From Scyliorhinus canicula (taxonomy: Eukaryota), in the NCBI RefSeq assembly GCF_902713615.1, contig NC_052161.1, positions 69,027,424-69,091,423 on the forward strand: a DNA stretch of 64,000 bases, read 5' to 3'. The position numbers and the translations under genes were made by a program. Positions 4,546 through 64,000 of this stretch are shown here, piece by piece. Numbering within the stretch: position 1 is the first letter of the stretch; every line of letters starts with the position of its first letter. The notes below the pieces were generated by a model. The model was given only the letters and a program-made list of their open reading frames with translations. It made no database searches and had not been told where the DNA came from.

Positions 4546-5178
4546 ATATATATGGGGGGTATTTAGAGCTCTTCCTGTTTATTTGCTTTGTTCCCATTTC
4601 TTTTATGTTATTTTGTTATTTTAGTCTGTGGATCCATAATCAAAATGTGCCTGTAAGCAGAAGGCTCAAAATTTCAGCAGCCTGCTTGTCAGGACACTGT
4701 GTTCCCAGGTTTTGTTGTTAGCCAGACTCCTCGGCACTGAGTGGATCTTAGGAACCAGGTTCGGAGAGAGTCGGATTGATGGGTTGGCCAGGGACAGTCT
4801 TCTGCCTCACAATGATCAGTGAATAGTTTCTGCGTGATGCTCTCTCTCTCTCTCGCTCTTTCTGTCTTTTTTCGCTTTTTCCTCTTTCTCTCTCTCTCTC
4901 TCTCTTCCCCTTTCTCTCTCTTTCTCTTTTATTTTATTTCTGTCTCTCTTTCTCTATTTCTCTCTCTCCCTTTTTCTCTCTCTCTCCTTGTTGAAGTGAA
5001 AGAACTGCTCTAGTTCTGAAAGCAGATGAGTGCCTGGCACATCCTTTGCCGTGAACCTGGCATGATTTTGAGTCTGCAGAGAAGAGACAACATAGAACAT
5101 AGAACGATACAGCGCAGTACAGGCCCTTCGGCCCTCAATGTTGCACCGACATGGAAAAAAAACTAAAGGCCATCTAAC

Positions 5179-8082
5179 CTACACTATGCCCTTATCATCC
5201 ATATGCTTATCCAATAAACTTTTAAATGCCCTCAATGTTGGCGAGTTCACTACTGTTGCAGGTAGGGCATTCCACGGCCTCACCACTCTTTGCGTAAAAA
5301 ACCCACCTCTGACCTCTGTCCTATATCTATTACCCTTCAATTTAAGGCTATGTCCCCTCGTGATAGCCACCTCCATCCGCGGGAGAAGGCTCTCGCTGTC
5401 CACCCTATCTAACCCTCTGATCATTTTGTATGCCTCTATTAGGTCACCTCTTAACCTTCTTCTCTCTAACGAAAACAACCTCAAGTCCATCAGCCTTTCC
5501 TCATAAGATTTTCCCTCCATACCAGGCAACATCCTGGTAAATCTCCTCTGCACCCGTTCCAAAGCTTCTACGTCCTTCCTATAATGGGGCGACCAGAACT
5601 GTACGCAATACTCCAAATGCGGCCGTACTAGAGTTTTGTACAACTGCAACATGACCTCATGGCTCCGGAACTCAATCCCTCTACCAATAAAGGCCATCAC
5701 ACCATAGGCCTTCTTCACAACCCTATCAACCTGGGTGGCAACTTTCAGGGATCTATGTACATGGACTCCGAGATCCCTCTGCTCATCCACACTACCAAGA
5801 ATTTTACCATTAGCCAAATATTCCGCATTCCTGTTATTCTTTCCAAAGTGAATCACCTCACACTTCTCCACATTAAACTCCATTTGCCACCTCTCAGCCC
5901 AGCTCTGCAGCTTATCTATGTCCCTCTGTAACCTGCAACATCCTTCCGCACTGTCTACAACTCCACCGACTTTAGTGTCGTCTGCAAATTTACTTACCCA
6001 TCCTTCTGCTCCCTCCTCTAGGTCATTTATAAAAATGACAAACAGCAACGGCCCCAGAACAGATCCTTGTGGTACGCCACTCGTAACTGAACTCCATTCT
6101 GAACATTTCCCATCAACCACCACTCTCTGTCTTCTTTCAACTAGCCAATTTCTGATCCACATCTCTAAATCACCCTCAATCCCCAGCCTCCGTATTTTCT
6201 GCAATAGCCGACCGTGAGGAACCTTATCAAACGCTTTACTGAAATCCATATACACCACATCAACTGCTTTACCCTCGTCCACCTGTTCAGTCACCTTCTC
6301 AAAGAACTCGATAAGGTTTGTGAGGCATGACCTACCCTTCACAAAACCATGCTGACTATCCCTAATCATATTATTCCTATCTAGATGATTATAAATCGTA
6401 TCTTTTATAATCCTCTCCAAGACTTTACCCACCACAGATGTTAGGCTCACCGGCCTATAGTTACCGGGGTTATCTCTACTCCCCTTCTTGAACAAAGGGA
6501 CCACATTTGCTATCCTCCAGTCCTCTGGCACTATTCCTGTAGCCAATGATGACCTAAAAATCAAAGCCAAAGGCTCAGCAATCTCTTCCCTGGCTTCCCA
6601 GAGAATCCTAGGATAAATCCCATCAGGCCCCGGGGACTTATCTATTTTCACCTTGTCCAGAATTGCCAACACTTCCTCCCTACTCACCTCAATGCCATCT
6701 ATTCTAATAGCCTGGGTCTCAGCATTCTCCTCCACAATATTATCTTTTTCCTGAGTGAATACTGACAAAAAGTATTCATTTAGTATCTCGCTTATCTCCT
6801 CAGCCTCCACACACAACTTCCCAAAACTGTCCTTGACTGGCCCTACTCTTACCCTAGTCATTCTTTTATTCCTGACATACCTATAGAAAGCTTTTGGGTT
6901 TTCCTTGATCCTACCTGCCAAAGACTTCTCATGTCCCTTCCTTGCTCGTCTTAGCTCTCTCTTTAGATCCTTCCTCGCTTCCCTGTAACTATCAAGCGCC
7001 CCAACTGAAACTTCACGCCTCATCTTCACATAGGCCTCCTTTTTCCTCTTAACAAGAGATTCCACTTCTTTGGTAAACCACGGTTCCCTCGCTCTACCCT
7101 TTCCTCCCTGTCTGACTGGTACGTACTGATCAAGAACACGCAATAGCTGTCCCTTGAACAAGCTCCACATATCCAGTGTGCCCAACCCTTGCAGCCTACT
7201 TCTCCAACCTACACATCCTAAGTCATGTCTAATGGCATCATAATTGCCCTTCCCCCAGCTATAACTCTTGCCCTGCGGGGTATACTTATCCCTTTCCATC
7301 ACTAATGTAAAGGTCACCGAATTGTGGTCACTGTCTCCAAAGTGTTCACTTACCTCCAGATCTAACACCTGGCCTGGTTCATTACCCAAAACCAAATCCA
7401 AAGTGGCCTCACCTCTTGTTGGCCTGTCAACATATTGTGTCAGAAAACCCTCCTGCACACATTGTACAAAGAACGACCCATCCAATGTACTCGAACTATA
7501 TCTTTTCCAGTCAATATTAGGAAAGTTAAAGTCTCCCATAACAACTACCCTGTTACTTTCGCTCTTTTCCAGAATCATCTTCGCCATCCTTTCCTCTACA
7601 TCTCTAGAACTATTAGGTGGCCTATAGAAAACTCCCAGCAGGGTGACCTCTCCTTTCCTGTTTCTAACCTCAGCCCATACTACCTCGGAAGAAGAGTCCC
7701 CATCTTGCACCCTTTCTGCCACCGTAATACTGTCCTTGACTAGCAGCGCCACACCTCCCCCTCTTTTGCCCCCTTCTCTGACTTTACTAAAGCACCTAAA
7801 CCCCGGAACCTGCAACAACCATTCCTGTCCCTGCTCTATCCATGTCTCTGAAATGGCCACAACATCGAAGTCCCAGGTACCAACCCATGCTGCCAGTTCC
7901 CCTACCTTATTTCGTATACTCCTGGCATTGAAATAGACACACTTCAAACCACCTACCTGAACACTGCCGCTTTCCTGCGAAGTCAAATCTGTGCTCCTGA
8001 CCTCTCTACTCTCAATCTCTCGCACCCCAAAACTACAATCCAGGTTCCCATGCCCCTGCTGAATTAGTTTAAACCCCCCCAA
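5179..8082 (-). CDS. CR1 ORF2: APE endonuclease plus reverse transcriptase
   Basis: 967 open codons. EN motifs YFNARS, ISETW, FYRPP, MGDFN and SDHN. RT motifs NYRPVSLTS, DFSKAFD, GVPQGSVLGP and FADD. The frame has no AUG until codon 166. Confidence 0.95.
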   Translation of the reverse strand: MGGFKLIQQGHGNLDCSFGVREIESREVRSTDLTSQESGSVQVGGLKCVYFNARSIRNKVGELAAWVGTWDFDVVAISETWIEQGQEWLLQVPGFRCFSKVREGGKRGGGVALLVKDSITVAERVQDGDSSSEVVWAEVRNRKGEVTLLGVFYRPPNSSRDVEERMAKMILEKSESNRVVVMGDFNFPNIDWKRYSSSTLDGSFFVQCVQEGFLTQYVDRPTRGEATLDLVLGNEPGQVLDLEVSEHFGDSDHNSVTFTLVMERDKYTPQGKSYSWGKGNYDAIRHDLGCVGWRSRLQGLGTLDMWSLFKGQLLRVLDQYVPVRQGGKGRAREPWFTKEVESLVKRKKEAYVKMRREVSVGALDSYREARKDLKRELRRARKGHEKSLAGRIKENPKAFYRYVRNKRMTRVRVGPVKDSFGKLCVEAEEISEILNEYFLSVFTQEKDNIVEENAETQAIRIDGIEVSREEVLAILDKVKIDKSPGPDGIYPRILWEAREEIAEPLALIFRSSLATGIVPEDWRIANVVPLFKKGSRDNPGNYRPVSLTSVVGKVLERIIKDTIYNHLDRNNMIRDSQHGFVKGRSCLTNLIEFFEKVTEQVDEGKAVDVVYMDFSKAFDKVPHGRLLQKIRRLGIEGDLEMWIRNWLVERRQRVVVDGKCSEWSSVTSGVPQGSVLGPLLFVIFINDLEEGAEGWVSKFADDTKVGGVVDSAEGCCRLQRDIDKLQSWAERWQMEFNVEKCEVIHFGKNNRNAEYLANGKILGSVDEQRDLGVHVHRSLKVATQVDRVVKKAYGVMAFIGRGIEFRSHEVMLQLYKTLVRPHLEYCVQFWSPHYRKDVEALERVQRRFTRMLPGMEGKSYEERLMDLRLFSLERRRLRGDLIEAYKMIRGLDRVDSESLLPRMEVAITRGHSLKLKGNRYRTEVRGGFFTQRVVRPWNALPATVVNSPTLRAFKSLLDKHMDDKGIV

Positions 8083-8990
8083 AGAGTACTAACAAATCTC
8101 CCCCCCAGGATATTGGTGCCCCTTAGGTTCAGATGTAGACCATCCTGTCTATAGAGGTCCCACCTTCCCCAGAAAGAGCCCCAGTTATCCAGAAATCTGA
8201 ATCCCTCCCGCCTGCACCATCCCTGTAGCCACGTGTTTAATTGCTCTCTCTCCCTATTCCTCGTCTCACTATCACGTGGCACGGGCAACAACCCAGAGAT
8301 AACAACTCTGTTTGTTCTCGCTCTGAGCTTCCATCCTAGCTCCCTAAAGGCCTGCCTGACATCCTTGTCCCCTTTCCTACCTATGTCGTTAGTGCCAATG
8401 TGGACTACGACTTGGGGCTGCTCCCCCTCCCCCTTAAGGACCCGAAAAACACGATCCGAGACATCACTTACCCTTGCACCTGGGAGGCAACATACCAAAC
8501 GTGAGTCTCTCTCGCTCCCACAAAATCTCCTATCTGTGCCCCTGACTATTGAGTCCCCAATTACTAATGCTCTGCTCCTCTCCCCCCTTCCCTTCTGAGC
8601 AACAGGGACAGACTCCGTGCTAGAGTTCCGCACCCCATGGCTTACCCCTGGTAAGTCGTCCCCCCCACAAGTATCCAAAACGGTATACTTGTTACTCAGG
8701 GGAACGACCGCAGGGGGTCCCTGCACTGTCTGCTTCTTCCCAGTCCCTCTTACAGTTACCCATCTATCTCCAGTCTTTGGTGTAACTACTTCCCTGAAGC
8801 TCCTATCTATGACCACCTCTGCCTCCCGAATGATCCGAAGTTCATCCAACTCCAGCTCCAGTACCATAACTCGGTCTTGTAGGAGCTGGAGCTGGCTGCA
8901 CTTCCTGCAGGTAAAATCAGCAGGGACACTAACAGCATCCCTCACCTCAAACATCCTGCAGGAGGAACATTGCACTACCTTCCCTGCCAT
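8064..8990 (-). CDS. CR1 ORF1: zinc-finger/leucine-zipper plus SGNH (GDSL) esterase domain
   Basis: First AUG at 8990 (MAGKVVQC). CxxC...CxxC followed by a heptad-Leu coiled coil. Esterase blocks VIGDSIVRG, CLPGA, HIGTND and DGLHLN. Confidence 0.9.
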   Translation of the reverse strand: MAGKVVQCSSCRMFEVRDAVSVPADFTCRKCSQLQLLQDRVMVLELELDELRIIREAEVVIDRSFREVVTPKTGDRWVTVRGTGKKQTVQGPPAVVPLSNKYTVLDTCGGDDLPGVSHGVRNSSTESVPVAQKGRGERSRALVIGDSIVRGTDRRFCGSERDSRLVCCLPGARVSDVSDRVFRVLKGEGEQPQVVVHIGTNDIGRKGDKDVRQAFRELGWKLRARTNRVVISGLLPVPRDSETRNREREQLNTWLQGWCRREGFRFLDNWGSFWGRWDLYRQDGLHLNLRGTNILGGRFVSTLWGGLN

Positions 8991-9804
8991 CCCACTTAAT
9001 TTCAACCAAGTTCTGGTAAACAAATATAAAACAAATAAAAAAATAATAATATAATATAGCACTTACCTGCTCACCCCAATGGGTCTTATTATTAGGTTAG
9101 AGGAGGAGGGCGGGTGGGAGACACTACACGTGTAGTGTCTCGGGTATCCTCTCCACCACAATTTATTGGCTAGGAGAAAATCCTTCCCAGAAGTCCGCGG
9201 GTCGTACTTCCGGTTCCCGCCTTATATTATCTTTGCTCCCACTGGCACCCCGCCGCTCTCAATGTGTCCCCTCCCGCTCTTTTCAATGTCCCGGCTGTCT
9301 TACCTCTCGCGCTCTTTTCAATGTCCTGGCTGTCTCTCCTCCCGCGCTGTTTTCAATGTGAAATGCCTTGCCAGAGAGAACCATCTCAAGCCTAGAAGGA
9401 AGAAGTATCAAAATGAAAGCTGAACTTCAGAAAGATACTAACTAGACGTTATCCCAGTGCATCAAAGTTCCTTATCCTTATATTTTTTTGATAAATATTT
9501 TACTTCTCTTTCCACCACACTTTCCCCTCTGTGAGGTTTGTGCGTTTTTAGAGAGAGCAAGGGTTGTTAAGAAACGGGGAGTCTGGAATGGTTACATTTT
9601 CTGTCCATTTAATTATAATACTGTAGATAATAAAAGGTTGCCTGTGTTAAAGTTACAAACTTGGCAACTGCAGTTTATTGGTGGGCTCAGGTGGCCAAGG
9701 ACCTTGAGTATTTTAAATAAAATCTTATTTCACCTGTGTTGTGACTCTGGGTCAAGTGGGGCTGGAATTGACCGCGCACTAACCCAGGGGATTGTGACAA
9801 CATT

Positions 9805-20793: not shown

Positions 20794-21637
20794 TTTAAAA
20801 AAAAATCTTTTTACTCTTCTCATTTTGAACATTTTCATCAATTAACGACCAAAGAAAAAAACAAATACAATAACAATCCCCCACACACAAACCGCCCCCC
20901 GCTCGATATACAGACCAAAACATCCACCCGTGCAGTCCAGGTAAAAAAATTAACAATCAATACGTAAATAGTGTAACCAAAGACAACAATACCAGCAACA
21001 CCCCCCCCCCCCCCTTCCCCCCGACCCCTATTGTTCAATGGTAACCAATTCTCGGAAGTGCACAATGAACAGCCCCATGAATTGTGAAGCCCTTCCTTCA
21101 TCCTCTTCAGCTGAGACTTCACCTTCCCGAGAGTCAAAGAACTACAAGCAGCACCCCCCCCACCCCTCGCCAAGTCGTGTCACAGGATGGAGAAGCTTAA
21201 CCTCCCCACCCCCCAAACAGGACCCGCCTCTGGGTATGCAGCGAGGCAAAGGCTAACATCTGCCCCTGCACCCGCCTGCCGCCCGAGCCGGTCCGCCCCC
21301 CGAAAAAAGCTTCTAGGGGCCCTGGTTCCAAGTTCACGAGCATTACCCCCGAGATGACCCTGAAAAACCACCCTCCATAAACCCTTTACATTCCACATAA
21401 CTATCCTAACTGGGGTCTCTCTCCTCCCCCCCCCCCCCCCCCCCCCCCACTCCTTCATTCACCCCCTTTTTCACGGCCGTTTTCCGTTGAGTTTTGGACA
21501 TCTTTCTTCCTTATGTCTTGCTGCAATTATTTAACCAAAGGTTGTCCCTGGGGCATTAGATTCTAAAAAAAATCAAGCCTCGAGCAGGAGCCACCCAACT
21601 TGCAACCTCCTCCTCCACGCCGCCACCGGAAGTCCCC
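20794..21637 (-). mobile_element. Internally deleted L1 derivative retaining both ends
   Basis: Minus strand reads 5' GGGACTTCCGGTGGCGG, an ORF1-like start MSKTQRKTAVKKG (ATG 21501), the ORF2 EN start PVRIVMWNVKGL, ORF2 C-terminal sequence, a poly-G 3'UTR and an A-tail. Confidence 0.7.
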
Positions 21638-22354
21638 TCTCGATGCAGTATTGATGGAATGTTTTTGAAAGGCAGTGTGGTGAGGACTTTCTAAACGCAA
21701 TTCCTTTGCCACCTTCTGCTTCCCAGCTTATGTTGGCTTTTCATTCTTACTCTTTTGCCCTCTCACTCATTTCATGCTTGCTTCTCCTTCTCGCCCCCTT
21801 AATAAGGACATGGGGAGTCCACACCGAGTAAAATAAGAAACAAAATTTTATTTACATAAACGATATGTTCACTATACCGGATTCCTCACTGGTCGGAACC
21901 TTACTGGGTTCATTCAGCTCATTCTCCGCTAGGGGCACGTGAAAGACGAGCATTCGCATCCCATAGGTTCCATGGGGGATATTACAACCGCACTACGAGT
22001 TTGCACTCTACAATATCCTTTTGTTCTTCCCCTTCCACCGCCACTCGCAACTCCCACCTCCTCCTGCTCCAAAGACCGGAATCTCTGCCTGCAGTGACCA
22101 GGAATTCCTGGTCACTGTAGAAATCCCATCCGCAGTGGAACAACATTCTGCCCCTTTCAGTCAGAGAACAGCAGCAGGTAGGCTTGGGGTGGGGTGCTGA
22201 GTGGTAGTGTGTGATATAACAGGAAGCAAAGGGAATGGATGTGGCATTGACGTTTAATATGTGGTTAGGTGCTGAGGCATGAGAGAGCAGAGTGGGCTGA
22301 AGGACTGAGGAGGGGACTGGGTTTGAGGAATGGGGACTGAGGGACAGATTGGGC

Positions 22355-22975
22355 TGAGGCACGGAGGAGGGGAGTGGGGCGGAGGAGGGGAGTGGGGCTG
22401 AGGGGCGGAGGAGGGGAGTGGGGCTGAGGGGCGGAGGAGGGGAGTGGGGCTGAGGGGCGGAGGAGGGGAGTGGGGCTGAGGGGCGGAGGAGGGGAGGGGG
22501 GCTGAGGGGCGGAGGAGGGGAGTGGGGCTGAGGGGCGGAGGAGGGGAGTGGGGCTGAGGGGCGGAGGAGGGGAGTGGGGCTGAGGGGCGGAGGAGGGGAG
22601 TGGGGCTGAGGGCCGGGGAGGGGAGTGGGGCTGAGGGGCGGAGGAGGGAGTGGGGCTGAGGGGCGGAGGAGAGGAGTGGGGCTGAGGGGCGGAGGAGGGG
22701 TGGGGCGGAGGAGGGGAGTGGGGCTGAGGGCCGGGGAGGGGAGTGGGGCTGAGGGGCGGAGGAGGGAGTGGGGCTGAGGGGCGGAGGAGAGGAGTGGGGC
22801 TGAGGGGCGGAGGAGGGGTGGGGCGGAGGAGGGGAGTGGGGCTGAGGGCCAGGGAGGGGAGTGGGGCTGAGGGGCGGAGGAGGGAGTGGGGCTGAGGGGC
22901 GGAGGAGGGAGCGGGGCTGAGGGCCGGGAAGGGGAGTGGGGCTGAGGGGCGGAGGAAGGGAGTGGGGCTGAGGGA
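22355..22975 (+). repeat. 26-bp G-rich minisatellite (~24 units)
   Basis: Unit GGGGAGTGGGGCTGAGGGGCGGAGGA with 25-bp and shorter variants. Degenerate units at 22265-22355. Confidence 0.95.
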
Positions 22976-24368
22976 TTTAGGGGGACATTTTGGCTGAGGG
23001 TCCTGTATATGCTGAGGATCCTGCATATTCTGAGGAATGGTTTCAGGCTGAGGAATAAGCACAGTGGCAGCATTAAATTTGCTGCATCAATGTGGATAAA
23101 CAGAAACTGCATTACAAATGCTGTTATCTCCATGTAGCATGGACTGGTGTGATATATATAGTTGGAGCAGACAGCGCTAATAAGTGAGATGTCTGTCTGT
23201 GTGGCACAACCTCGCCTTCCACTTTCCTGTTTATGTTTTCCACACTTTGCCCGTTGCCACATATTTGACAAACATCTTGCGGCTCTATCGCCTCACCAAC
23301 TGGAACTGTTTCCAGCCACAGGAATGCCGTGGGCACGTTTACAGCATTAATGAATTCAGCAAAGAATCCTGCAAATCTGAAATCCTCTTCGAAAACCCCA
23401 AGTCTTTATTTTCTCCAGATCAGTCAACAACAGAAAATATATTTTGACCATTTCTTTACGAGTGCAATACTTGGGTAGTGAGAAATTAATTGCTTGAATC
23501 TATGAAACGATATGCTGCTTCGCTAATGCAGTGACCCTGCACCATGCAGAGTGTGAGAAACACTGAGACCGTGTTCCCGCTAATGGGTGCAGTTGTCAAT
23601 TTGGTTCCAATCTGCACCCATTGTGAGTTTCCTTTCCCTCCATGTTTCTGCCCCGTCTGTGGGGAATGCAAAAGCTGCCATGAAGCAGTGCAATCAAATC
23701 TTTCAGAATGTATTTGTTTTCAAATTGCTTTCAAATGGTCTCTTTCATAGATTTAAAATGGAAACTTGAAGTGTGATTGAAGCAGCTGAAGATCCAAAAA
23801 TAACCCTTGAGTAATCACCATGTCAATTCACCTGAGCAACCTGAATTTAAACGACTGAAATCCGCCTTCATTATTATTTGAAGTGCACTCGTCTGTTTGT
23901 TTGTAAATTAAAACAAACATCACATTTAAAAGTTTTAAAAATGGGCCTTTTAGAGTCACTGCGCAAAATAAAATCCAGTTAAATTTTTAAACCCTCCAAG
24001 AGAGCAATTACAGGAAATGTAATTCGCCCTGTGGATGTGGTCGGCTGACAAGCACAGTGCTTGTAAAATCAGCGCAAAAGATTGAAGAAACCTATATTGC
24101 ACCGAATGAAAATCATACCTGAAAGTTTAGCAGGTACTTGTGTGGTTTGTGCTGCTGGCAGCTGCATTGCACCAATACAACACTGCAATTTAGAGGACAT
24201 TCCAGGCCATGTCCTGTGCAGGTCCATCGCTACCTCGGGTCTCGTACCTGTGCTTCAGATTTTTAACGTCCTAGGGTCAGGCTTTTATCCCTCATGTGGT
24301 CATCCACAAGTCCACCCTGCCCTGTGTACACTGCCACACTGCATTGTATTGGGATCTGATGTCCCTTG

Positions 24369-25489: not shown

Positions 25490-26340
25490 GAACATAGGAA
25501 CAGGAGTAGGCCATCTAGTCCATCCAGCCTGCTTTGCCCAATAAGATCATGGGTGATCGGATACTTTACGCACACTAACCCCATGACCCTTTACATTATT
25601 GTTAACCAGGAATTTATCAATCTCTGCTTTAAGCATACTCAACGGCTGAGCTTCCACAACCCTCTGGGGTAGAGAATTCCAAAGATTCACAATCCTCTAT
25701 GTAAAGAAATTTCTCCTCATCTCAGTCCTAAGTGGCTCCCCTCTTATTTTGAAATTGTGCCCCTGGTTCTGTACTCTTCAACCAAAGGAAGCACCTTGCC
25801 TGCATTTACCTGTCTGTTTGTTTAAAAATTTTGTAGATTTCAATGAGATCGCTTCTCATTTTTTGAAATTCTAGAAAATACAGGCCCAGTTTGCACAATC
25901 TCTCTTCACAAGACAGTCCCACAGTTTACAAGTCTGGTAAACCTTTGTTGCATTCCCTCTATGGCAGTAATATCCTTTCTGAGTTAAGGGGACCAAAACT
26001 GTACACAGTACTCCAGGTACAGTCAAATGAAATTCCTATACAATTGAAGCGAGACCTCGCTACTCCTGTACTCAATTCCTCTTATGAATAGCTTACTGCA
26101 CCTGCATACTAGCCTTCAGTGACTTGTGGACAAGGGCACCCAGGTCCCTTTGTACAGCTATACTTCTTAATTTCTTACCATTTAGGCAATACTCTCCACA
26201 TCTGTTCCTTCTACCAAAACGGATTACCTCACGTTTTTCCACATTATGTTCCATCTGCCATGTTCTTGCCCACGAACTAGAAGTACCTGTGAATTTGGAA
26301 ATGTTACATTTGGTCTCCACGTCAAAATCATTGATATACT
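25490..26340 (-). mobile_element. Decayed CR1 3' fragment
   Basis: Tail GAACATAGGAACAGGAGTAGGCCAT. ORF 26093-26320 WARTWQMEHNVEK...QRDLG is homologous to CR1 ORF2. Confidence 0.8.
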
Positions 26341-29616: not shown

Positions 29617-30800
29617 AATGGGAAGAAGTCAGGGACACTGGCAGCAATTTTCAAATCCTCACTGGCCACAGGTGAGGTGCCAGAGGATTGGAGGACTGCA
29701 AATAGAACATAGAACAGTACAGCACAGAACAGGCCCTTCGGCCCTCGATGTTGTGCCGAGCAATACCCTACTCAAACCCACGTATCCACCCTATACCCGT
29801 AACCCAACAACCCCCCCCCCCTTAACCTTACTTTTTTAGGACACTACGGGCAATGTATCATGGCCAATCCACCTAACCCGCACATCTTTGGACTGTGGGA
29901 GGAAACCGGAGCACCCGGAGGAAACCCACGCATACACGGGGAGGACGTGCAGACTCCGCACAGACAGTGACCCAGCCGGGAATTGAACCTGGGACCCTGG
30001 AGCTGTGAAGCATTTATGCTAACCACCATGCTACCGTGCTGCCCCATTGTCCCATTATTAAAAAAGGGAGGTAGGGATAGTCCAGGGAATTATAGGCCAG
30101 TCAGTCTAACCTCGGTGGTAGAGAGGTTACTCAAAAGAATTTTAAGGGACAGAATATATCTACACTTGGATAGACACTGATTAATAAGGGATAGTCAGCA
30201 TGGATTTGTTAAGGGAAGGCCGGTTTGAGAAACAGTTTTTTGAGGAGGTAACCAGAAGTGTTGATGAGAGTAATGCATTTGATGTGTTCTATATGAACCT
30301 TAAGGCTTTTGGTAATGGTAGACTGGTCAAAAAAGGAAGATCCCATGTGGTCCAAAGTAAAATGGCACATTGGATCCAGAATTGGCCGAGAGGCAGGAAG
30401 CAGAGGGTGATGGTAGAGGGATACACCTGTGATGAGAAGTATGTTTCCAGTGGGGTGCTCGGTGCTGGAGCCCTTTCTATTTGTGATGTACATTAATGAT
30501 TTGGATTTTGGGGGTATGACCAAGAGGTTTGTGGATGACAAAGAAAATTGGTTGGGCGGTAAATAGTGAGGTGGATAGCCGTAGACTGCAGGAGGGTATC
30601 AGTGTACTGGTCAATTGGGCAGAGCAGTGACCAATGGAATTTAACCAGAAAAGTGTGAGGTAATGAACTTGGGGAGGACTAACAAGGCGAAGGATTACCC
30701 TATGAATGGTAGGACCCTGGATAGTAATGAAGATCAGAGGGACTTTGGGAGTGCATATCCATAGATCCCTGAAGGTGGCAGGAAATGTAAAGAAATAGGA
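29617..30800 (+). mobile_element. Decayed CR1 RT fragment
   Basis: PGNYRPVSLTSVV, SQHGFVKG, WIQNW...RKQRVMV and FVDD remnants. Confidence 0.85.
29702..30045 (-). mobile_element. Full-length young V-SINE with CR1-shared tail
   Basis: Nearly identical to 40532-40876. The tail matches the CR1 3' end at 5091-5150. Confidence 0.92.
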
Positions 30801-34976: not shown

Positions 34977-37500
34977 ACCCCGGCCTGCTCGGTCCCTGCG
35001 CCGCCCCGGCCTGCTCGGTCCCTGCGCCGCCCCGGCCTGCTCGGTCCCTGCGCCGCCCCGGCCTGCTCGGTCCCTGCGCCGCCCCGGCCTGCTCGGTCCC
35101 TGCGCCGCCCCGGCCTGCTCGGTCCCTGCGCCGCCCCGGCCTGCTCGGTCCCTGCGCCGCCCCGGCCTGCTCGGTCCCTGCGCCGCCCCGGCCTGCTCGG
35201 TCCCTGCGCCGCCCCGGCCTGCTCGGTCCCTGCGCCGCCCCGGCCTGCTCGGTCCCTGCGCCGCCCCGGCCTGCTCGGTCCCTGCGCCGCCCCGGCCTGC
35301 TCGGTCTCAGTGCCGCCCCGGCCTGCTCGGTCCCTGCGCCGCCCCGGCCTGCTCGGTCCCTGCGCCGCCCCGGCCTGCTCGGTCCCTGCGCCGCCCCGGC
35401 CTGCTCGGTCTCAGTGCTGCCCCGGCCTGCTCGGTCCCTGCGCCGCCCCGGCCTGCTCGGTCCCTGCGCCGCCCCGGCCTGCTCGATCCCTGTGCCGCCC
35501 CGGCCTGCTCGGTCTCTGTGCCGCCCCGGCCTGCTCGGTCCCTGCGCCGCCCCGGCCTGCTCGGTCCCTGCGCCGCCCCGGCCTGCTCGATCCCTGTGCC
35601 GCCCCGGCCTGCTCGGTCTCTGTGCCGCCCCGGCCTGCTCGGTCTGCTCGGTCCCTGCGCCGCCCCGGCCTGCTCGGTCCCTGCGCCGCCCCAGCCTGCT
35701 CGGTCCCTGCGCCGCCCCGGCCTGCTCGGCCTGCTCGGTCCCTGCGCCGCCCCGGCCTGCTCGGTCCCTGCGCCGCCCCGGCCTGCTCGGTCCCTGCGCC
35801 GCCCCGGCCTGCTCGGTCCCTGCGCCGCCCCAGCCAGCTCGGTCCCTGCGCCGCCCCGGCCTGCTCGGTCTCTGTGCCGCCCCAGCCAGCTCGATCCCTG
35901 TGCCGCCCCGGCCTGCTCGGTCTCTGTGCCGCCCCGGCCTGCTCGGTCCCTGCGCCGCCCCGGCCTGCTCGGTCCCTGCGCCGCCCCAGCCTGCTCGGTC
36001 TGCTCGGTCCCTGCGCCGCCCCGGCCTGCTCGGTCCCTGCGCCGCCCCGGCCTGCTCGGTCCCTGCGCCGCCCCGGCCTGCTCGGTCCCTGCGCCGCCCC
36101 GGCCTGCTCGGTCCCTGCGCCGCCCCGGCCTGCTCGGTCTCTGAGCCGCCCCGGCCTGCTCGGTCCCTGCGCCGCCCCGGCCTGCTCGGTCCCTGCGCCG
36201 CCCCGGCCTGCTCGGTCCCTGCGCCGCCCCGGCCTGCTCGGTCCCTGCGCCGCCCCAGCCAGCTCGGTCCCTGCGCCGCCCCGGCCTGCTCGGTCCCTGC
36301 GCCGCCCCGGCCTGCTCGGTCCCTGCGCCGCCCCGGCCTGCTCGGTCTCTGAGCCGCCCCGGCCTGCTCGGTCCCTGCGCCGCCCCGGCCTGCTCGGTCC
36401 CTGCGCCGCCCCGGCCTGCTCGGTCCCTGCGCCGCCCCGGCCTGCTCGGTCCCTGCGCCGCCCCAGCCAGCTCGGTCCCTGCGCCGCCCCGGCCTGCTCG
36501 GTCCCTGCGCCGCCCCGGCCTGCTCGGTCCCTGCGCCGCCCCAGCCTGCTCGGTCCCTGCGCCTCCCCGGCCTGCTCGGTCCCTGCGCCGCCCCGGCCTG
36601 CTCGGTCCCTGTGCTGCCCCAGCCAGCTCGATCTCTCTGCCGCCCCAGCCAGCTCGGTCCCTGCGCCGCCCCGGCCTGCTCGGTCTCTGAGCCGCCCCGG
36701 CCTGCTCGGTCTCTGAGCCGCCCCGGCCTGCTCGGTCCCTGCGCCGCCCCGGCCTGCTCGGTCCCTGCGCCGCCCCGGCCTGCTCGGTCCCTGCGCCGCC
36801 CCGGCCTGCTCGGTCTCTGAGCCGCCCCGGCCTGCTCGGTCCCTGTGCTGCCCCAGCCAGCTCGGTCTGCTCGGTCTCTGTGCTGCCCCAGCCAGCTCGG
36901 TCTGCTCGGTCTCTGTGCTGCCCCAGCCAGCTCGATCTCTCTGCCGCCCCAGCCAGCTCGGTCTGCTCGGTCTCTCTGCCGCCCCAGCCTGCTCGGTCCC
37001 TGCGCCTCCCCAGCCAGCTCGGTCCCTGCGCCGCCCCGGCCTGCTCGGTCCCTGCGCCGCCCCGGCCTGCTCGGTCCCTGCGCCGCCCCAGCCAGCTCGG
37101 TCTCTGCGCTGCCCCAGCCAGCTCGGTCTCTGCGCTGCCCCAGCCAGCTCGGTCTGCTCGGTCTCTGTGCTGCCCCAGCCAGCTCGATCCCTGTGCCGCC
37201 CCAGCCAGCTCGGTCTCTCTGCCGCCCCAGCCAGCTCGGTCTGCTCGGTCTCTCTGCCGCCCCAGCCAGCTCGGTCTGCTCGGTCTCTCTGCCGCCCCAG
37301 CCAGCTCGGTCTGCTCGGTCTCTCTGCCGCCCCAGCCAGCTCGGTCTGCTCTGTCTCTGTGCCGCCCCGACCTCCTCGGTCTCTGCGCCACCCTGGCCGG
37401 CTTGGTCTGCTCTGTCACTGCACCACCCCAGCCAGTCCGCTCCCTGCGCCGCCCCAGCCAGCTCGGTCTCGGTCTCTGCACCGCCCTGGCCTACTCGCTG
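34977..37500. repeat. 26-bp CpG-rich minisatellite, ~2.5 kb
   Basis: Unit CGGCCTGCTCGGTCCCTGCGCCGCCC, homogeneous at the left and increasingly variant to the right. Confidence 0.97.
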
Positions 37501-38492
37501 CCTGCTCCGTCCCGACCTACCGCATGCGGGGCATGCGGTGCTTTAAGGTTGGGCGCAGATTTACTGATTAGAGGGTTCAATGGGGGGGAGGGCTCACCAG
37601 CAGATGAGCTGAGGCGGGGTGAAGTCGGGCGATATTAAGTTCGGAACTAAGGAACAAATATAGAATATAAAACTCTTGATTGTGGACTGTGTGTGCTGGT
37701 CCCAGATGGACAGAAGTCTGGCAGATCCCATGGAATTTCCTGGCCGACATCCATTTGCAAGCTTTTTGTTTTACAATCCGCCATGTGTCAAGTAAGATGA
37801 TCCCACGTTAGAATAATGGCTGCAGAGTACCTGGTCGGAGGCTTGGGATTCCCCATGTATTTTCAGTGTTGTAATCGGTCTGTCTTATTTTTATATTTCA
37901 GCAGAAACATTTCTACACATGGTACAGTGGCCAAATAATGGCAGCTTTGCTGACGGTGAAACCCAGTGTACAGTGAGAATTATGTTGCCATTGAATGCTC
38001 TTTGTATTTCAGTTAGACTTAAGTCACATTAATTCATGGCTTATTTCTTTCCAGTCTAGTGTTACGTGCAACAACATTGCAAATAATGTGGAGAATGTGT
38101 TTTGTTCAAATCTCTGGCCTGATTTTTTTGTAATAGACACAAGCCGATTACCCCTGACAATGCACAGACTGAGACAGAGGCAATAATATTGCTAATGGGG
38201 TCAAAGTTACTCTGTGCAGAACAGAATGAAGTTCTAAAGCAGCAACAATGATTTATAGAGTACCTTTCACGTCATGAAACATCCCAAGGCACTTCCTTAT
38301 GAAATAAATTCCCATAAGGAGATGTAAGGTCAGACTAGATTGGAAGCGGTCAGTTTTAAGAGGAAATTGAGCCAGAGGCGGAGAGGTTTAGGGAGGGAAT
38401 TCCAGAGGTTACGATCCAGGCAACTGAAGCATGGCAACCAATGGTGGAGCAGTTAAAATGCTGCCTTTTCAGCTGCTGCATAGGAACAGTCC

Positions 38493-54062: not shown

Positions 54063-54629
54063 ACTTACCATAAGAACTAGGAGCAGGAGTCGGCAATCTG
54101 GCCCCACAAGCCTGTCCCACCATTCAATAAGATCATGGCTGATTGTTTTGTGGACTCAGCTCCACTTACCCACTAACTCGCCATAACCCTTAATTCCTTT
54201 ACTGTTCAAAAATCTATCTATCTTTGCCTTAAAAACATTTAACAAGGTAGCCTCAACTGCTTCACTGGGCAGGGAATTGCACAGATTTACAACCCTTTGG
54301 GTGAAGAAATTCCTCATCAACTCAGTCCTAAATCCACCCCACCCCCTCCCCCTTACAGCTTCAAAATAACCTCCCTGTTTTTAAACTCCATCCCTCTCGT
54401 AATGAAGGACAAAATTCCATTTGCCGCCTTAATTACCCGCTGCACCCGCAAACCAACTTTTTGCGATTCATGCACAAGGACACCCAGGTCCCTCTGCACA
54501 GCGGCATGCTGCAAATCTTTACCATTTAAATAATAATCCATTTATTTTTTATTCCAACCAAAATGGATGACCTCACATTTACCAACATTGTACTCCATCT
54601 GCCAGGCCCACTCACTTAAACTATCTATA

Positions 54630-54813
54630 TGAAATGAAATGAAAATCGCTTATTGTCACGAGTAGGCTTCAATGAAGTTACTGTGAAAAGCCCCTAGTCG
54701 CCACATTCCGGCGCCTGTCCGGGGAGGCTGGTACGGGAATTGAACCGTGCTGCTGGCCTGCCTTGGTCTGCTTTAAAAGCCAGCGATTTAGCCTTGTGAG
54801 CTAAACCAGCCCC
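54630..54813 (-). mobile_element. tRNA-derived SINE family B
   Basis: Near-identical to 13732-13907. Confidence 0.88.
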
Positions 54814-56324
54814 TGTGCAGGCTATCCCTCGGCAGGCTTTCAGTGTCCTCTTCACACTTTACCACTTATTTTAGTGTCATCCGCGAACTTTGACATATTA
54901 CACCTAGTCCTCAACTCCAAATCGTCTATGTAAATTGTAAATAATTGTGGTCCTAAAATTGATCCCTCAGGCACACCACCAGCCACTGATCGCCAACCAG
55001 CAAAACACTCATTTATCCCCACTCTTTGCTTTCTGTTAGTTAACCAATCCTTCATCCATGCTAATACATTACCGTAACACCGTGAACCCTTATCTTATGC
55101 AACAGCCTTTTATGCGGCACCTTGTCAAATGCCTTCTGGAAATCCAGATACACCACATCCACCAGTTCCGCATTGTTGACCTCGCTCATAATGTTCTCAA
55201 AGATATCCAATAAATTACTTAAACATGACCTGCCTTTCATGAACCCATGCTGCGTCTGCCCAATGGAACAATATCTATCCAGATGTCTCGCTATTTCTTT
55301 CTTAACAATAGATTCAAGCATTTTCTAACCAGCCTATAGTTACCTGCATTTTGTCTAGCTCCTTTATTGAATAGTGGTGTCACATTTGCTGATTTCCAAT
55401 CTGCCGGAACCACCCCGGAGTCCAGCGAATTTTGTTAAATTACCCCGAGCGCATTTGCTATTTCCCCCACAACCTCTTTTAGTACCCTGGGATGCATTCC
55501 ATCAGGGCCAGGAGACTTGTCTACCTTTAGCCACATTAGCTTGCCCAACACTGCCTCCTTTGCGATAATGATCGTTTCTAGGCCCTCACCTGCCATAGCC
55601 TCCTTGCCTTCAATTATTGGCATGTTATTTGTGTCTTCCACCACGAAGACCGACACAAAAGACCTGTTCAATGCCTCGGCCATTTCCTCATTTCCCATTA
55701 TTAAATCCCCCTTCTCATCCTCTAAAGGACCAATGTTTACCTTAGCTACTCTTTTTCGCTCTATATATTTGTAGAAGATTTTGCGATCTGTTTATTTCTG
55801 AGCTAGTTTACTCTCATAATTTGCTTTGCTTTTTATAGCTTTTATCGTGACTTTCGGTTGACCTTTAACGATTTCCCAATCCTCTAGTTTCCCACTAATC
55901 TTTGCCACTTTGTATGCATTTTCTTTCAATTTGATACCCTCTATTTCCTTGGATATCCATGGCTGATCATCACTTTTCCTACAGTCCTTCCTCCCAGTAC
56001 ATATTTTTGTTGAGCACTGAAAAATCACTTTAAAAGTTCTCCAGTGTTCCTCAATTGCCCCACCATAAAGTCTTTGCTCCCAGTCTACCTTAGCCAACTT
56101 CTCCCTCATTCCATTGTCGTCTCCTTTGTTTAAGCACAAGGCATTGGTGCTGGATTTTACCTTCTCACCCTCCATCTGTATTTTAAATTCAACAATACTG
56201 TGATCAACAATACTGTGATCAACAATACTGAGAGAATCCCTAACTATGAGATCATTAATTATTCCTATCTCATTACACAGGACCAGACCTAGGATAGCTT
56301 GCTTCCTCGTAGGTTCTATTACAT

Positions 56325-56733
56325 GCACTCACCTGATGAAGAAACTATGCTCTGAAAACTAGTGATTCCAAATCATTGAATTTACAGTGCAGAAGGAGGC
56401 CATTAGGCCCATCGAGTCTGCACCAGCCCTTACAAAGAGCACCCTAATGAAGCCCACTGAACATTTTTTTGGACACTAAGGGCAATTTAGCATGGCCAAC
56501 CCACCTAACCCGCACATCTTTGGACTGTGGGAGGAAACCGGAGCACCCGGAGGAAACCCACGCAGACACAGGGAGAACATGCAGACTCCGCACAGACTGA
56601 CCCAGCTGGGAAAGACCGTGACCCAGCCAGGAAGGACAGTGACCCAGCCAGGAATCCTGTAGGACGTTAACCTGGTGTTGTAAGACTTCTTACTGTGCCC
56701 ACCCCAGTCCAACGCCAGCATCTCCACATCACC
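56325..56733 (+). mobile_element. Second Penelope-like hammerhead-bearing element, split by a minus-strand V-SINE (~56375-56656)
   Basis: Both halves match 13049-13180. Flanking direct repeat ATTACAT at 56318-56324 and 56734-56740. Confidence 0.75.
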
Positions 56734-56914
56734 ATTACATACTATTCGAGGAAACTATTGCGGATGCATTCTATGAACTCCTCCTCAAGGCTGCCTTGAC
56801 CGACCTGGTTTGACCAATCGACCAATCAAGATTGCCGTACCATTTTGTGCAAGAGTTATTTCTTTGCTTATTGCCCGCCCGTCTGGGTTGTTATTCTTTG
56901 GTGGCCTATAGACT

Positions 56915-57130
56915 ACAGTAGCACAGTGGGGGCAGCACAGTAATTAGCACAGTTGCTTCACAGCTCCAGCGTCCAAGGTTCTAAATTGCCCATAGTGTTC
57001 AAAAAGGGTAAATGGGGCTACTGGTTTATGGTGAGAAAGGGTATAGGGTGTAGGTGTGGGGCTTAAGTGGGGTGCTCTTTCCACACTCGATGGGCCGAAT
57101 GGCATCCTTCTACATTGTAAATTCAATGAT
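56915..57130 (+). mobile_element. Internally deleted V-SINE
   Basis: The head is joined directly to TAAATTGCCC and the CR1-type tail. Confidence 0.7.
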
Positions 57131-58158
57131 ACTATGATACTCTATGATCAGTGACCTTTTCTCCTTACTATTTGTAAATGGAGTCAACCTTTTTCTCCAT
57201 TAAACCTATATCCTTTCTCACTATTGCCCTGACGTCATCCTTAAATATCAGAGCTACACCACCTCCCTTACCTTCCTGCCTGTCCTTCGAATAGTCTGAT
57301 ACCAGTGGATATTTAACTCCCAGTCGTGACCATCCTGCAACCATGTCTCTGTAATGACCTCTAAATCATACTCCTTCACAATGATTTGTGCCGTCAACTC
57401 ATTTTCCTTGTTTTGAATGCCACAGGTATTCAAGTAAAGTGCCCTTATGCTAGTTTTTTTTACCATTCTAAATCCTAAACCCCTCCATTAAATCATCTCC
57501 TAAATTCTACTTCACTTTAAATTTTTTCATAATTTTCCCTGTAGTTGAACCCCACATGCTAACCTGCTGATTGGCTTCTCTTTTACCATTAATCTTCCCG
57601 TAGTTTTACCCATCCCTTCCCCCCACTTGTTAGTTTAAAGTCCTTTTGACCACCCTACTTATCCTTTCAGCTAGACCCAGATCCGCTCCGGTGAAGACCG
57701 TTCAAACGGTGCAGATTCTTCCTGTTCCAATATTGAAAGCATGCCCCGCGAAAAGGAACCCCTCTTTCCCGAACCACTCCTTTAGCCATGTGTTTACTTC
57801 CCTAATTTTCTCATCCTAATTTGTATGTGGCTTTGTAGTAATCCAGAAATTATAACCCTTGAGGACCTGTTTTTTAATTTAGTTCCTAGTGCCTGATAAT
57901 CCCCCAACAGGTCCTCTTTCCTCGCCTTGCCTATGTTACCAAATCTACGTTGCGTACCCAACTACTCTAAACGCAACCAAAGCAGCATCCCCACACCCAC
58001 TGTTGTACTTGTGGCTATTGGCTACTCCACTCCCAGTCTCGCTTCCCTCATGGGCCCTAGGTTAGAGGCTTTCTTGGTTTTGTTGGCTTCCAACACTTCA
58101 GTTAAGACATTGGTGGTATGTTTCTCATGTTTGTTTTTTCCCTTTGTGGTTTGTACAG

Positions 58159-62924: not shown

Positions 62925-64000
62925 ATAGAAACATGCATAGAAAATAGAAGCAGGAGTAGGCCATTCGGCTCTTCGAGCTTGCTCTGCCATTCATTATGAT
63001 CATGAATAATCAGCAAATTGAAAATGAAAATCGCTTATTGTCACAAGTAGGCTTCAAATGAAGTTACTGTGAAAAGCCCTAGTCGCAACATTCCGGCGCC
63101 TGTTCGGGGAGGTTGGTACGGAAATTCAGTTCCCTGATCCCGCCTTCCCCACACATCGCTTGATCCCTTTAACCCCAAGAGCTATATCTCAATCCTTCTT
63201 GAAATCGTACAATATTTTGGCCTCGACTACCTTCCAGAAATTCACCACTCTCTGGGTGAAGAAATTTCTCCTCGCCTCAGTCCTGAAAGGTTTATCCCTT
63301 ATCCTCAAACTATGACCCCTAATTCTGCACTCCCCCACCATCGGGAACATTATTTTGGAATCTACCCTGCTGGAATTTTGTAAGTTTCTATGAGATCCCT
63401 CTCACTCTACTAAACTGCAATGATATAATCCTAATCTTTCCTTATATGACAGTCCCACCATCCCAGGAATCAGCCTGGTGAACCTTTGCTGCACTCCCTC
63501 CATCGCAACAACATCCTTCCTCAGATAAAGACAACTAAACTGCACGCAATATTCCAGGTGTGGCCTCACCAATACCTATACAATTGCGGTAAAGCATCCC
63601 TATTCCTATGCTCAAATAATGTCGCTATGAAGGCCAACATACCATTTGCCTTCTTTACTGCCTGCTCTACCTGCACGCTTACTTTCAGTGACTGATGCAT
63701 GAGGACACCCAAGGTCTCGCTGAGTATCCACCTCTCTCAATTTACACCCATTCACATAATTATCTGTCTTCCTATCTTTGCCACCAAAGTGGATAAACTC
63801 ACATTGATCCACATTATATTGCATCTGCTATGCATATGCTCACTCACTCAGTCTGTCCAAATCCCGCTGAAGCATCTCTGCATCCTCCTCACCTCTCACC
63901 CTTCCACATAACTTTATACCACCTGCAAATTTGGAGATAATACATTTAGTTCCCTTTCCAAATCATTAATTTATAATGTGAACAGTTGTGGTCCTAGCAC
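62925..64000 (-). mobile_element. CR1 3' fragment running off the window, with a nested family-B SINE fragment (63021-63125)
   Basis: Tail CATAGAAAATAGAAGCAGGAGTAGGCCATTCGG. ORF 63612-63824 MQYNVDQCEFIHFG...QRDLG. Confidence 0.85.

What the first reader, a model, noticed from the sequence alone, without database searches (positions are those of the whole stretch)
8040..8085. In-phase U-UUA-AAC slippery site at the CR1 ORF1/ORF2 junction: candidate -1 programmed frameshift giving an esterase-EN-RT fusion protein
Seen: on the minus strand ORF1 ends ...TGG GGG GGT TTA AAC TAA, and ORF2 overlaps it in the -1 frame (TTG GGG GGG TTT AAA CTA ATT...). Two X-XXY-YYZ heptamers overlap in the correct phase just before the ORF1 stop: G-GGT-TTA and T-TTA-AAC (8073-8067). 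The first AUG in the ORF2 frame is codon 166, downstream of the endonuclease motifs NARS, SETW and YRPP, so ordinary AUG initiation cannot give a complete endonuclease. Known: UUUAAAC is the coronavirus 1a/1b slippery heptamer, and LINE ORF2 translation is mostly explained by termination-reinitiation. Inference: this CR1 may use a retrovirus-like -1 frameshift. I see only a weak downstream hairpin (CAGG-N10-CCTG), so no stimulator is established. I cannot say whether this has been reported for CR1.
Basis: partly seen in the sequence, partly recalled or inferred. Interest (0 to 1): 0.8.

Follow-up and report, generated by a model that had tools for sequence, protein, structure and literature searches.

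The report
Ribosomal slip site in CR1 retrotransposons
In a very young, intact jumping gene (a CR1 LINE), the first gene ends in a seven-letter slippery sequence that distant relatives keep letter for letter or swap for another slippery sequence, and the second gene has no start codon before its enzyme domain, so ribosomes likely slip back one base to make a fused protein, which would explain how this major vertebrate transposon family makes its copying enzyme.

Summary
Observation confirmed. ORF1 (esterase) ends T-TTA-AAC-TAA (8073-8064, minus strand); ORF2 (endonuclease+RT) is open in the -1 frame, its first Met lying after three endonuclease motifs. Eighteen other genomic copies are identical over 451 nt, so no AUG was lost. 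In 18 lineage representatives (shark families with ORF2s down to ~50% identity, bird-like and more distant elements) the site is T-TTA-AAC in 15, G-GGA-AAC in 2, G-TTA-AAC in 1. Leu is always TTA and Asn always AAC while other conserved ORF1 codons vary; in 7 of 18 the -1 frame closes 1-2 codons upstream. No downstream RNA structure is conserved; instead a G-rich box sits 11-20 nt 3' of the heptamer and keeps that register when the stop moves. The codon over the stop varies, arguing against UAAUG coupling. Fish ZfL2-1-like relatives lack the heptamer and have in-frame TGA-C junctions. Best reading: -1 programmed frameshift giving an ORF1-ORF2 fusion (0.82); untested at the bench. Ten literature searches found no report for CR1, but the 1997 CR1 papers were unreadable. 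This scan noted the same idea twice before on other genomes.

The parts
8067..8073 (-). Slippery heptamer T-TTA-AAC (U_UUA_AAC) in ORF1 phase; last two ORF1 codons Leu-Asn, read Phe-Lys in the -1 frame
   Evidence: conservation
8064..8066 (-). ORF1 stop TAA directly 3' of the heptamer (TAG or TGA in relatives; one codon later in family L170-L184)
8047..8056 (-). G-rich box (GGGG-N3-GGG) at +11 to +20 from the heptamer; candidate 3' stimulator, function inferred
   Evidence: 12 of 13 rows in exact register, 2 of 11219 positions in ORF2 sense as control; no consensus fold
8089..8091 (-). TAG that closes the -1 frame 5 codons upstream of the heptamer, limiting the ORF1/ORF2 overlap
8070..8076 (-). 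Second in-phase heptamer G-GGT-TTA; family-specific, not conserved
8064..8990 (-). ORF1, 308 aa: Cys-rich N-terminus, predicted long helix, disordered linker, SGNH esterase
   Evidence: PF13472 E 7e-15; model helix 29-65, esterase 141-304, residues 306-308 pLDDT<50; PDB 4C1B E 3e-39 with profile A1
5179..8088 (-). ORF2, 969 codons stop-to-stop: about 42-codon linker, APE endonuclease, reverse transcriptase
   Evidence: PF03372 E 8e-21, PF00078 E 1e-36
7585..7587 (-). First ATG in the ORF2 frame (codon 168), downstream of NARS, SETW and YRPP
5089..5178 (-). 3' UTR ending in short TTCTATG repeats; element 3' end near 5089
   Evidence: loose read ends pile up at 5089-5093
8991..9359 (-). 5' UTR with tandem repeats; the 5' boundary is approximate
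   Evidence: read joints and loose ends at 9271-9359

Best explanation
This intact young CR1 LINE likely makes its endonuclease/reverse transcriptase by -1 programmed ribosomal frameshifting: most ribosomes end ORF1 at the stop, and a minority would slip back one base on U_UUA_AAC and run on into ORF2, giving an esterase-endonuclease-RT fusion at low ratio, as in retroviral Gag-Pol. Shown: the heptamer, its phase, the -1 register of ORF2, the lack of an AUG before the endonuclease, and deep conservation at synonymous positions. Inferred: the slip itself, the fusion protein (junction ...GGLN/LIQQ... for tandem slippage), and that the G-rich box 11-20 nt downstream, not a hairpin or pseudoknot, is the stimulator.
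For: (1) Synonymous invariance: among 16 gap-free representatives (median 51% nucleotide identity over the 69 nt upstream) Leu is TTA in 15 of 15, Asn AAC in 16 of 16, the wobble base before them T in 15 of 16, while the invariant Leu five codons into DGLHL uses 4 codons and two near-invariant Gly use 3 and 4; background chance per family about 0.02. [quoted passage not shown] (3) Protein-only test: of 186 ORF1 homologs with an intact end, 113 end LN, 9 end GN (all QGN), 5 end KN (all SKN); the residue before LN is one whose codon cannot end in T in 1 of 113, against 52 of 113 one position earlier; 0 of 47 after thinning to <70% identity, P about 5e-5. (4) The -1 frame is closed 1-2 codons before the heptamer in 7 of 18, so entry from upstream is confined to it. 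(5) No Met before the first endonuclease motif in 4 of 12 representatives where it could be located, including young multi-copy families. (6) The linker from heptamer to endonuclease is 89-230 nt long, yet open in the -1 frame in those 12, with stops in the +1 frame in 12 and in the 0 frame in 11. (7) In family L170-L184 (15 of 15 loci) the stop is one codon later while heptamer and G box keep their spacing. (8) Leu-Asn lies beyond the last helix of the predicted esterase. (9) Range: LN ends in snake, turtle, swallow, Komodo dragon proteins; TTTAAAC+stop at the ORF1 end in 17 CR1-labelled consensus rows from alligator, crocodile, bowfin, bullfrog, chimaera, rays, coelacanth, dragon lizard and sharks (found by searching the motif, so no denominator).
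Against: No experiment shows a -1 product. No conserved stimulatory structure: z-scores of 38 folds lie between -2.1 and +2.2, the consensus fold of 13 rows has no pairs, and no long-range partner for the G box beats shuffles clearly. 8 of 12 representatives do have a Met in the linker, and two (L157, L160) have the SART1-type TAATG overlap, so AUG reinitiation is possible there. The 12 linkers were chosen for having an endonuclease motif in the -1 frame; L160, L164 and L143 have a stop in that frame (taken as decayed copies) and L112, L130, L133 are cut short. Linker pN/pS is only about 0.5-0.7 and in two of four pairs no better in the -1 than in the 0 frame. Lineages are related, so the probabilities are not independent. 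53 of the 186 proteins do not end in Asn (many are L2-type or damaged, not sorted one by one). DNA was seen for only 2 GN-type loci and no KN-type locus.
Confidence: 0.82

Rival explanations
1. Termination-reinitiation: ribosomes stop at the ORF1 stop and restart in the -1 frame on the overlapping codon (AUG in some families, near-cognate AUU here), as for SART1, L1 or calicivirus TURBS; the G box would help hold the ribosome.
For: The stop overlaps an ORF2-frame codon by one base exactly as in UAAUG; it is ATG in L157 and L160 and ATT in the window's family. Reinitiation tolerates non-AUG codons, and the SART1 helper element lies downstream of the stop (PMC5972666 passages). A UGGGA lies 96 nt upstream in the window.
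Against: The codon over the stop takes 11 different forms in 18 representatives, most not near-cognate (GAG, GGT, GGA, GAC, GAT, GCT); upstream UGGGA is missing in 6 of 7 bird-like loci and coincides with Trp-Asp codons here. It does not explain TTA/AAC invariance, the swap to G-GGA-AAC, or a G box that follows the heptamer and not the stop.
Confidence: 0.11
2. The heptamer is kept for another reason (a C-terminal Leu-Asn needed by ORF1p, or an RNA/DNA cis-element for packaging or transcription), and ORF2 starts by leaky scanning or an IRES.
For: LN is nearly invariant at the protein level. An IRES between the ORFs has been proposed for non-LTR elements in general (PMC3894237).
Against: Protein need does not fix synonymous codons; the tail is outside the predicted fold and becomes LNF, QGN or SKN elsewhere. 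There is no intergenic region here, and the linker is open in one frame only.
Confidence: 0.05
3. The ORFs are joined at the RNA level, by splicing or by polymerase slippage in the G7 run just upstream, so no ribosomal shift is needed.
For: A run of 7 G precedes the site; single genomic copies with extra G there have ORF1 and ORF2 fused in frame (L166, L168).
Against: The G run is absent in L159, L171 and bird-like loci. In two raw RNA runs (depth about 15 and 95 over 8020-8170) no joint spans the junction and no indel is listed in 8040-8090 at 3% or more of reads; these reads pool many copies and host transcripts, and events under 3% would be missed. The AG that a splice acceptor needs is absent where the stop is TAA or TGA.
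Confidence: 0.02

Closest known systems
-1 programmed ribosomal frameshifting at U_UUA_AAC / G_GGA_AAC / A_AAA_AAC (coronavirus 1a/1b, retroviral gag-pol, LTR retrotransposons, PEG10)
   Same: Same X_XXY_YYZ heptamers in correct phase (PMC5009743 passages); structural or RNA-binding ORF upstream, polymerase in the -1 frame, no AUG needed.
   Different: Host is a non-LTR (LINE) element; stop lies directly after the heptamer; no pseudoknot or stem-loop found 3'.
PRRSV nsp2 frameshift, trans-activated by nsp1beta plus poly(C)-binding protein on CCCANCUCC
   Same: A short unstructured motif 11 nt 3' of the shift site (PMC5009743 passage); the CR1 G box starts at +11.
   Different: Motif is G-rich, not C-rich; no binding protein is identified here; likeness of geometry only.
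SART1 UAAUG translational coupling and L1 termination-reinitiation
   Same: Bicistronic LINE RNA with ORF2 in the -1 frame next to the ORF1 stop; two shark families have TAATG.
   Different: AUG overlap is not conserved and is absent in the window's family; a slippery heptamer is conserved instead.
ZfL2-1 (zebrafish L2 clade A, esterase ORF1; PDB 4C1B)
   Same: Homologous SGNH esterase ORF1. I recall, unverified here, that Kajikawa et al. 2012 (Gene) proposed ORF2 translation by suppression of the ORF1 stop; ZfL2-1-like loci found here have in-frame TGA-C junctions, which would also give an ORF1-ORF2 fusion.
   Different: Same frame and no heptamer, so readthrough and not frameshift.
Canonical vertebrate CR1 with esterase ORF1 (PMC13343379)
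   Same: Esterase ORF1, APE + RT ORF2, microsatellite 3' end; a sister family in this genome matches the junction of a consensus labelled LINE/CR1.
   Different: That paper's main text has no occurrence of frameshift, slippery, overlap, translation or start codon.
Drosophila HeT-A gag frameshift; Dictyostelium TRE5-A/TRE3-A
   Same: HeT-A is the one non-LTR frameshift case in the held part of PMC5009743. TRE elements were named as closest known in an earlier scan note.
   Different: HeT-A has no RT. I could not verify the TRE claim: two TRE papers gave no supporting passage and two older ones are not held.

Membership tests
CR1-group LINE, esterase type | ORF2 with APE endonuclease and RT | tested here: met
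   PF03372 and PF00078
CR1-group LINE, esterase type | SGNH esterase ORF1 | tested here: met
   PF13472; 4C1B
CR1-group LINE, esterase type | 3' end of short microsatellite repeats, no poly(A), no LTR | tested here: met
   TTCTATG repeats ending near 5089
CR1 superfamily (as against L2) | RT phylogeny places it in the CR1 clade | not tested
   No tree built; indirect support only from the labelled consensus rows with the same junction
Canonical -1 PRF signal | X_XXY_YYZ heptamer in 0-frame phase within the overlap | tested here: met
Canonical -1 PRF signal | Downstream ORF open in the -1 frame from the heptamer on | tested here: met
Canonical -1 PRF signal | Heptamer conserved at synonymous positions or replaced by another shifty heptamer | tested here: met
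Canonical -1 PRF signal | 3' pseudoknot or stem-loop 5-9 nt downstream | tested here: not met
   No stable or conserved nested structure. No pseudoknot program was run, but the G box has no conserved C-rich partner within 100 nt. So not filed as the canonical structured type.
Canonical -1 PRF signal | Measured heptamer-dependent -1 product | not testable with these tools
   needs reporter, ribosome profiling or mass spectrometry
Protein-stimulated PRF (PRRSV, cardiovirus type) | Conserved sequence motif at a fixed distance of about 10-13 nt 3' of the shift site | tested here: met
   12 of 13 rows in register; of the 5 other representatives one is degenerate (L165), three are shifted by 1-3 nt (L111, L112, L117), one is cut short (L130)
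Protein-stimulated PRF (PRRSV, cardiovirus type) | A protein binds the motif and raises frameshifting | not testable with these tools
   no binding data
UAAUG / TURBS termination-reinitiation | Conserved AUG overlapping or near the stop | tested here: not met
   ATG over the stop in 2 of 18; absent in the window's family
UAAUG / TURBS termination-reinitiation | Conserved UGGGA at a fixed distance upstream of the stop | tested here: not met
   absent within 130 nt in 6 of 7 bird-like loci; variable elsewhere

The most novel reading that the evidence does not exclude
Esterase-type LINEs have kept a Gag-Pol-like fusion strategy across vertebrates and beyond, in two forms that mirror retroviruses: -1 frameshift in CR1 and UGA-C readthrough in L2. 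The CR1 signal needs no RNA structure: a G-rich box 11 nt downstream is bound by a protein (a host G-tract binder or ORF1p itself) that stalls the ribosome and sets the ORF1:fusion ratio, the first cellular-genome counterpart of the PRRSV protein-stimulated frameshift and a handle by which the host or the element tunes transposition.
Probability: 0.3. Interest if true: 0.92.

Novelty: new variant of a known kind. Interest (0 to 1): 0.8.

Why it matters
How LINEs translate ORF2 is described as an open question (PMC3894237), and the explanations in the reviews I read are UAAUG coupling, reinitiation, IRES and 2A peptides, not -1 frameshifting. CR1-group elements are the dominant retrotransposons of most vertebrates and 22-34% of shark and ray genomes (PMC13343379). 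If right, the working RT of CR1 is a ~1270-residue ORF1-ORF2 fusion and not the annotated ORF2; this gives a simple route to cis-preference, changes how intact CR1 copies should be called (AUG-less ORF2s are not broken), and supplies a compact, structure-free frameshift signal that one reporter assay can test.

Tried and rejected
Downstream hairpin or pseudoknot: folds of 45/70/100 nt in 13 loci no better than dinucleotide shuffles, consensus fold empty, G-quadruplex predicted only in L091, L133 and once in L031. Long-range partner of the G box in ORF2/3' UTR: best duplex within about 2.5 kcal of shuffled means in 3 families. G-GGT-TTA as the site: not conserved. Linker pN/pS as proof of coding: inconclusive. 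An amplified fused subfamily: the heptamer-less fused junction of L167 occurs once in the genome, and a search for longer fused proteins scored none among 8000 candidates, weak evidence. Scans of viral contigs and genome contigs found no relatives. No indexed RNA holder was on record; two raw RNA runs of the same species label were laid instead. Of 46 metagenome loci 19 gave no ORF1-end anchor; of 27 with one, 10 were used as representatives, 10 were the in-frame fish class, 4 ended before the stop, 3 were frame-broken bird-like copies that still show TTTAAAC at the junction. Literature: 10 searches listed no paper on a CR1 frameshift; the one paper holding CR1 and ribosomal frameshift uses the latter for avian retroviruses. 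Not held: Kojima 2005, Alisch 2006, Kajikawa 1997, Kapitonov and Jurka 2003 and three others; Haas 1997 and Kajikawa 2012 were not looked up.
Full report
The element. The finding lies in a full-length LINE on the minus strand, about 9359 to 5089. ORF1 (8990-8064, 308 aa) carries an SGNH esterase; ORF2 (open from 8088 to 5179) carries an APE endonuclease and a reverse transcriptase. The 3' end is a short TTCTATG repeat. The best named ORF1 relatives are from sharks and rays, so the 4.2 Gb host is likely a shark. The family is very young: of 30 loci fetched, 19 (the window's own included) are identical over the 451 nt around the junction and 11 differ by one base, none in the site.

The observation. 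The strand reads TGG GGG GGT TTA AAC TAA; T-TTA-AAC is at 8073-8067 in ORF1 phase and ORF2 runs in the -1 frame. The first Met in that frame is codon 168, behind NARS, SETW and YRPP. Since identical copies share this, the element transposed recently without an AUG ahead of the endonuclease. In-phase slippery heptamers occur at 8 of 3500 codon positions inside four ORF2s, so one at the last two codons of ORF1 is unusual even before comparison.

Conservation in the own genome. Searches with ORF1 proteins, not with the motif, brought in further families whose ORF2s are 48-82% identical. Of 138 loci (5 repeats of one place), 132 have T-TTA-AAC exactly 26 codons after DGLH; 4 keep it displaced by an indel, 1 has a substitution, 1 a deletion. 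In family L170-L184 the stop comes one codon later (LNF*), yet the heptamer stays and so does its distance to the downstream box.

Conservation beyond. A metagenome scan with upstream peptide patterns gave 46 loci; 27 had an ORF1-end anchor. Seven bird-like loci have T-TTA-AAC-TAG, L111 and L112 have G-GGA-AAC-TAG, L117 has G-TTA-AAC-TAG, and the endonuclease is in the -1 frame in the 7 of these 10 that reach it. Taking one natural copy per lineage (18 in all, my choice), the 16 gap-free ones share a median 51% identity upstream, yet Leu is TTA in 15 of 15, Asn AAC in 16 of 16 and the preceding wobble T in 15 of 16, while conserved Leu and Gly codons of the DGLHL...G stretch vary freely; codon usage gives about 0.02 per family. 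These lineages are related, so I do not multiply the figure. A protein-only test on 267 homologs (186 with an intact end) agrees: 113 end LN, 9 QGN, 5 SKN, and the residue before LN avoids E/Q/K/W/M, whose codons cannot end in T (1 of 113 against 52 of 113 one place earlier; 0 of 47 after thinning). LN ends occur in snake, turtle, swallow and Komodo dragon proteins, and a sea cucumber protein belongs to the group that L117 matches best. In the supplement of PMC13343379, where only the first 400 nt of each consensus are visible, a motif search showed 22 rows; 17 CR1-labelled rows and one Crack-labelled row have the motif at the ORF1 end, 4 are unrelated places (no denominator). The three heptamer types implied are among those that PMC5009743 calls most shifty.

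Where ORF2 can be entered. The -1 frame is closed 1-2 codons before the heptamer in 7 of 18 representatives and 5 codons before it in the window. Downstream, the linker to the endonuclease varies from 89 to 230 nt but is open in the -1 frame in the 12 representatives with a locatable endonuclease motif, with stops in the other frames in all but one case; these 12 were selected for that motif, three others have a stop (taken as decayed) and three are cut short. Four of the 12 have no Met in the linker; eight have one, at scattered positions. The codon overlapping the stop takes 11 forms; it is ATG in two. Linker pN/pS is weak and does not single out the -1 frame in two of four pairs.

The stimulator. 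No stable fold lies 3' of the site in the window's family (z about 0 to +0.9) or in 12 other loci, and the consensus fold is empty. What is conserved is a G-rich box, GGGG-N3-GGG, at +11 to +20 (8056-8047): 12 of 13 rows in register, against 2 of 11219 positions elsewhere in ORF2; five representatives were left out of those rows (one degenerate, three shifted by 1-3 nt, one cut short). Its Gly codons are GGG almost throughout (background 0.31) and in L117 the G runs persist without the Gly-x-Gly peptide, so the constraint looks nucleotide-level. The distance equals that of the PRRSV motif bound by nsp1beta and PCBP, 11 nt. That a protein binds it is inference; a weak G-quadruplex or a pause at the adjacent stop are alternatives.

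Other routes. Two raw RNA runs cover the junction (depth about 15 and 95) with no joint across it and no indel in 8040-8090 at 3% or more; they pool many copies and host transcripts. TURBS-like UGGGA upstream is not conserved. In the AlphaFold model the esterase's last helix ends at 304 and 306-308 are low-confidence, so Leu-Asn is outside the fold and a C-terminal extension would not disturb it. Single copies L166-L168 are fused in frame by local indels; the L167 junction occurs once, so no fused family is shown.

A natural control. Ten metagenome loci with esterase ORF1 of the ZfL2-1 type (for a representative protein) have no conserved heptamer; all end ORF1 with TGA, 9 of 10 followed by C, the -1 frame closes within 1-26 codons, and the endonuclease motif follows in the same frame in 8, with no Met before it in 5 of those 8. 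This fits stop readthrough, which I recall was proposed for ZfL2-1 (Kajikawa 2012; not read here). So the heptamer tracks the -1 arrangement, and both branches seem built to fuse ORF1 to ORF2.

What is in print. Ten searches (listings) showed no report of a CR1 frameshift. Seen: PMC5009743 passages from its first 300,000 characters; PMC2881922 passages; PMC3894237 parts 1-2 of 3; PMC5972666 passages; PMC13343379 part 1 of 8, term searches and truncated supplement rows; term searches in PMC2612034, PMC11303007, PMC1925062, PMC3905857, PMC11835228, PMC3159450, PMC5006619. The 1997 descriptions of full-length turtle and chicken CR1 and Repbase notes could not be read and may mention the overlap or the motif; early papers on other LINEs suggested frameshifting in general terms (recalled). 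Two earlier notes of this scan reached the same idea on other genomes; they are not independent evidence, and the TRE5-A lead from one was not confirmed.

Verdict. The feature is real and conserved at the nucleotide level across CR1 lineages. A -1 programmed frameshift is the most likely mechanism (0.82), termination-reinitiation the main rival (0.11). It is a known kind of recoding in a setting where I found no report of it, with a non-canonical, structure-free 3' element. Interest 0.8.

Noticed in passing
L114, L115, L116, L120, L122, L136, L146, L152 (ORF1 stop; also L124, L132): Fish ZfL2-1-like elements: ORF1 ends TGA, followed by C in 9 of 10 (TGA-CTAG in L115, L116); ORF2 continues in the same frame, 5 of 8 without a Met before the endonuclease motif. 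Candidate UGA readthrough.
   Followed up: partly
L170-L184 (G000): Multi-copy family in which the ORF1 stop lies one codon after the heptamer (LNF*) while the G box keeps its distance to the heptamer; no Met before the endonuclease motif in most copies.
   Followed up: yes
L166, L167, L168 (G000): Single copies with small indels at the junction that fuse ORF1 and ORF2 in one frame (open about 1320 codons in L166 and L167). The L167 junction is unique in the genome.
   Followed up: partly
L031-L060, L157, L160 (G000): Families with both the heptamer and a TAATG stop/start overlap: frameshift and SART1-type coupling could coexist.
   Followed up: partly
window 8052-8050 region (ATG at 8051-8049, minus): An ATG inside the G box lies in the ORF1 frame and opens only a short ORF; it is absent in bird-like loci, so probably a by-product of the box.
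   Followed up: no
P0008: An ORF1 76% identical to the window's is filed at NCBI as a Pseudomonas aeruginosa SGNH hydrolase on a 4 kb contig; likely shark DNA contamination.
   Followed up: no
P0035, P0065, P0066, P0102, P0114, P0122: CR1 ORF1 sequence appears inside predicted isoforms of host genes (RPS24, TMEM204, HAO2, NCOA5 and a nuclear receptor); gene-model artefacts or exonisation.
   Followed up: no
window 25592-26308, 30040-30795, 54192-57463, 63162-63956: Older, fragmented LINE ORF2 remnants related to this element (35-70% aa identity in pieces).
   Followed up: no
window 21500-23000 and 35000-38000: Very GC-rich, strongly skewed blocks (GC up to 0.82, AT skew -0.88), probably simple or tandem repeats.
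   Followed up: no
window 9271-9359: Tandem repeats at the 5' end of the element with variable copy number among reads.
   Followed up: no
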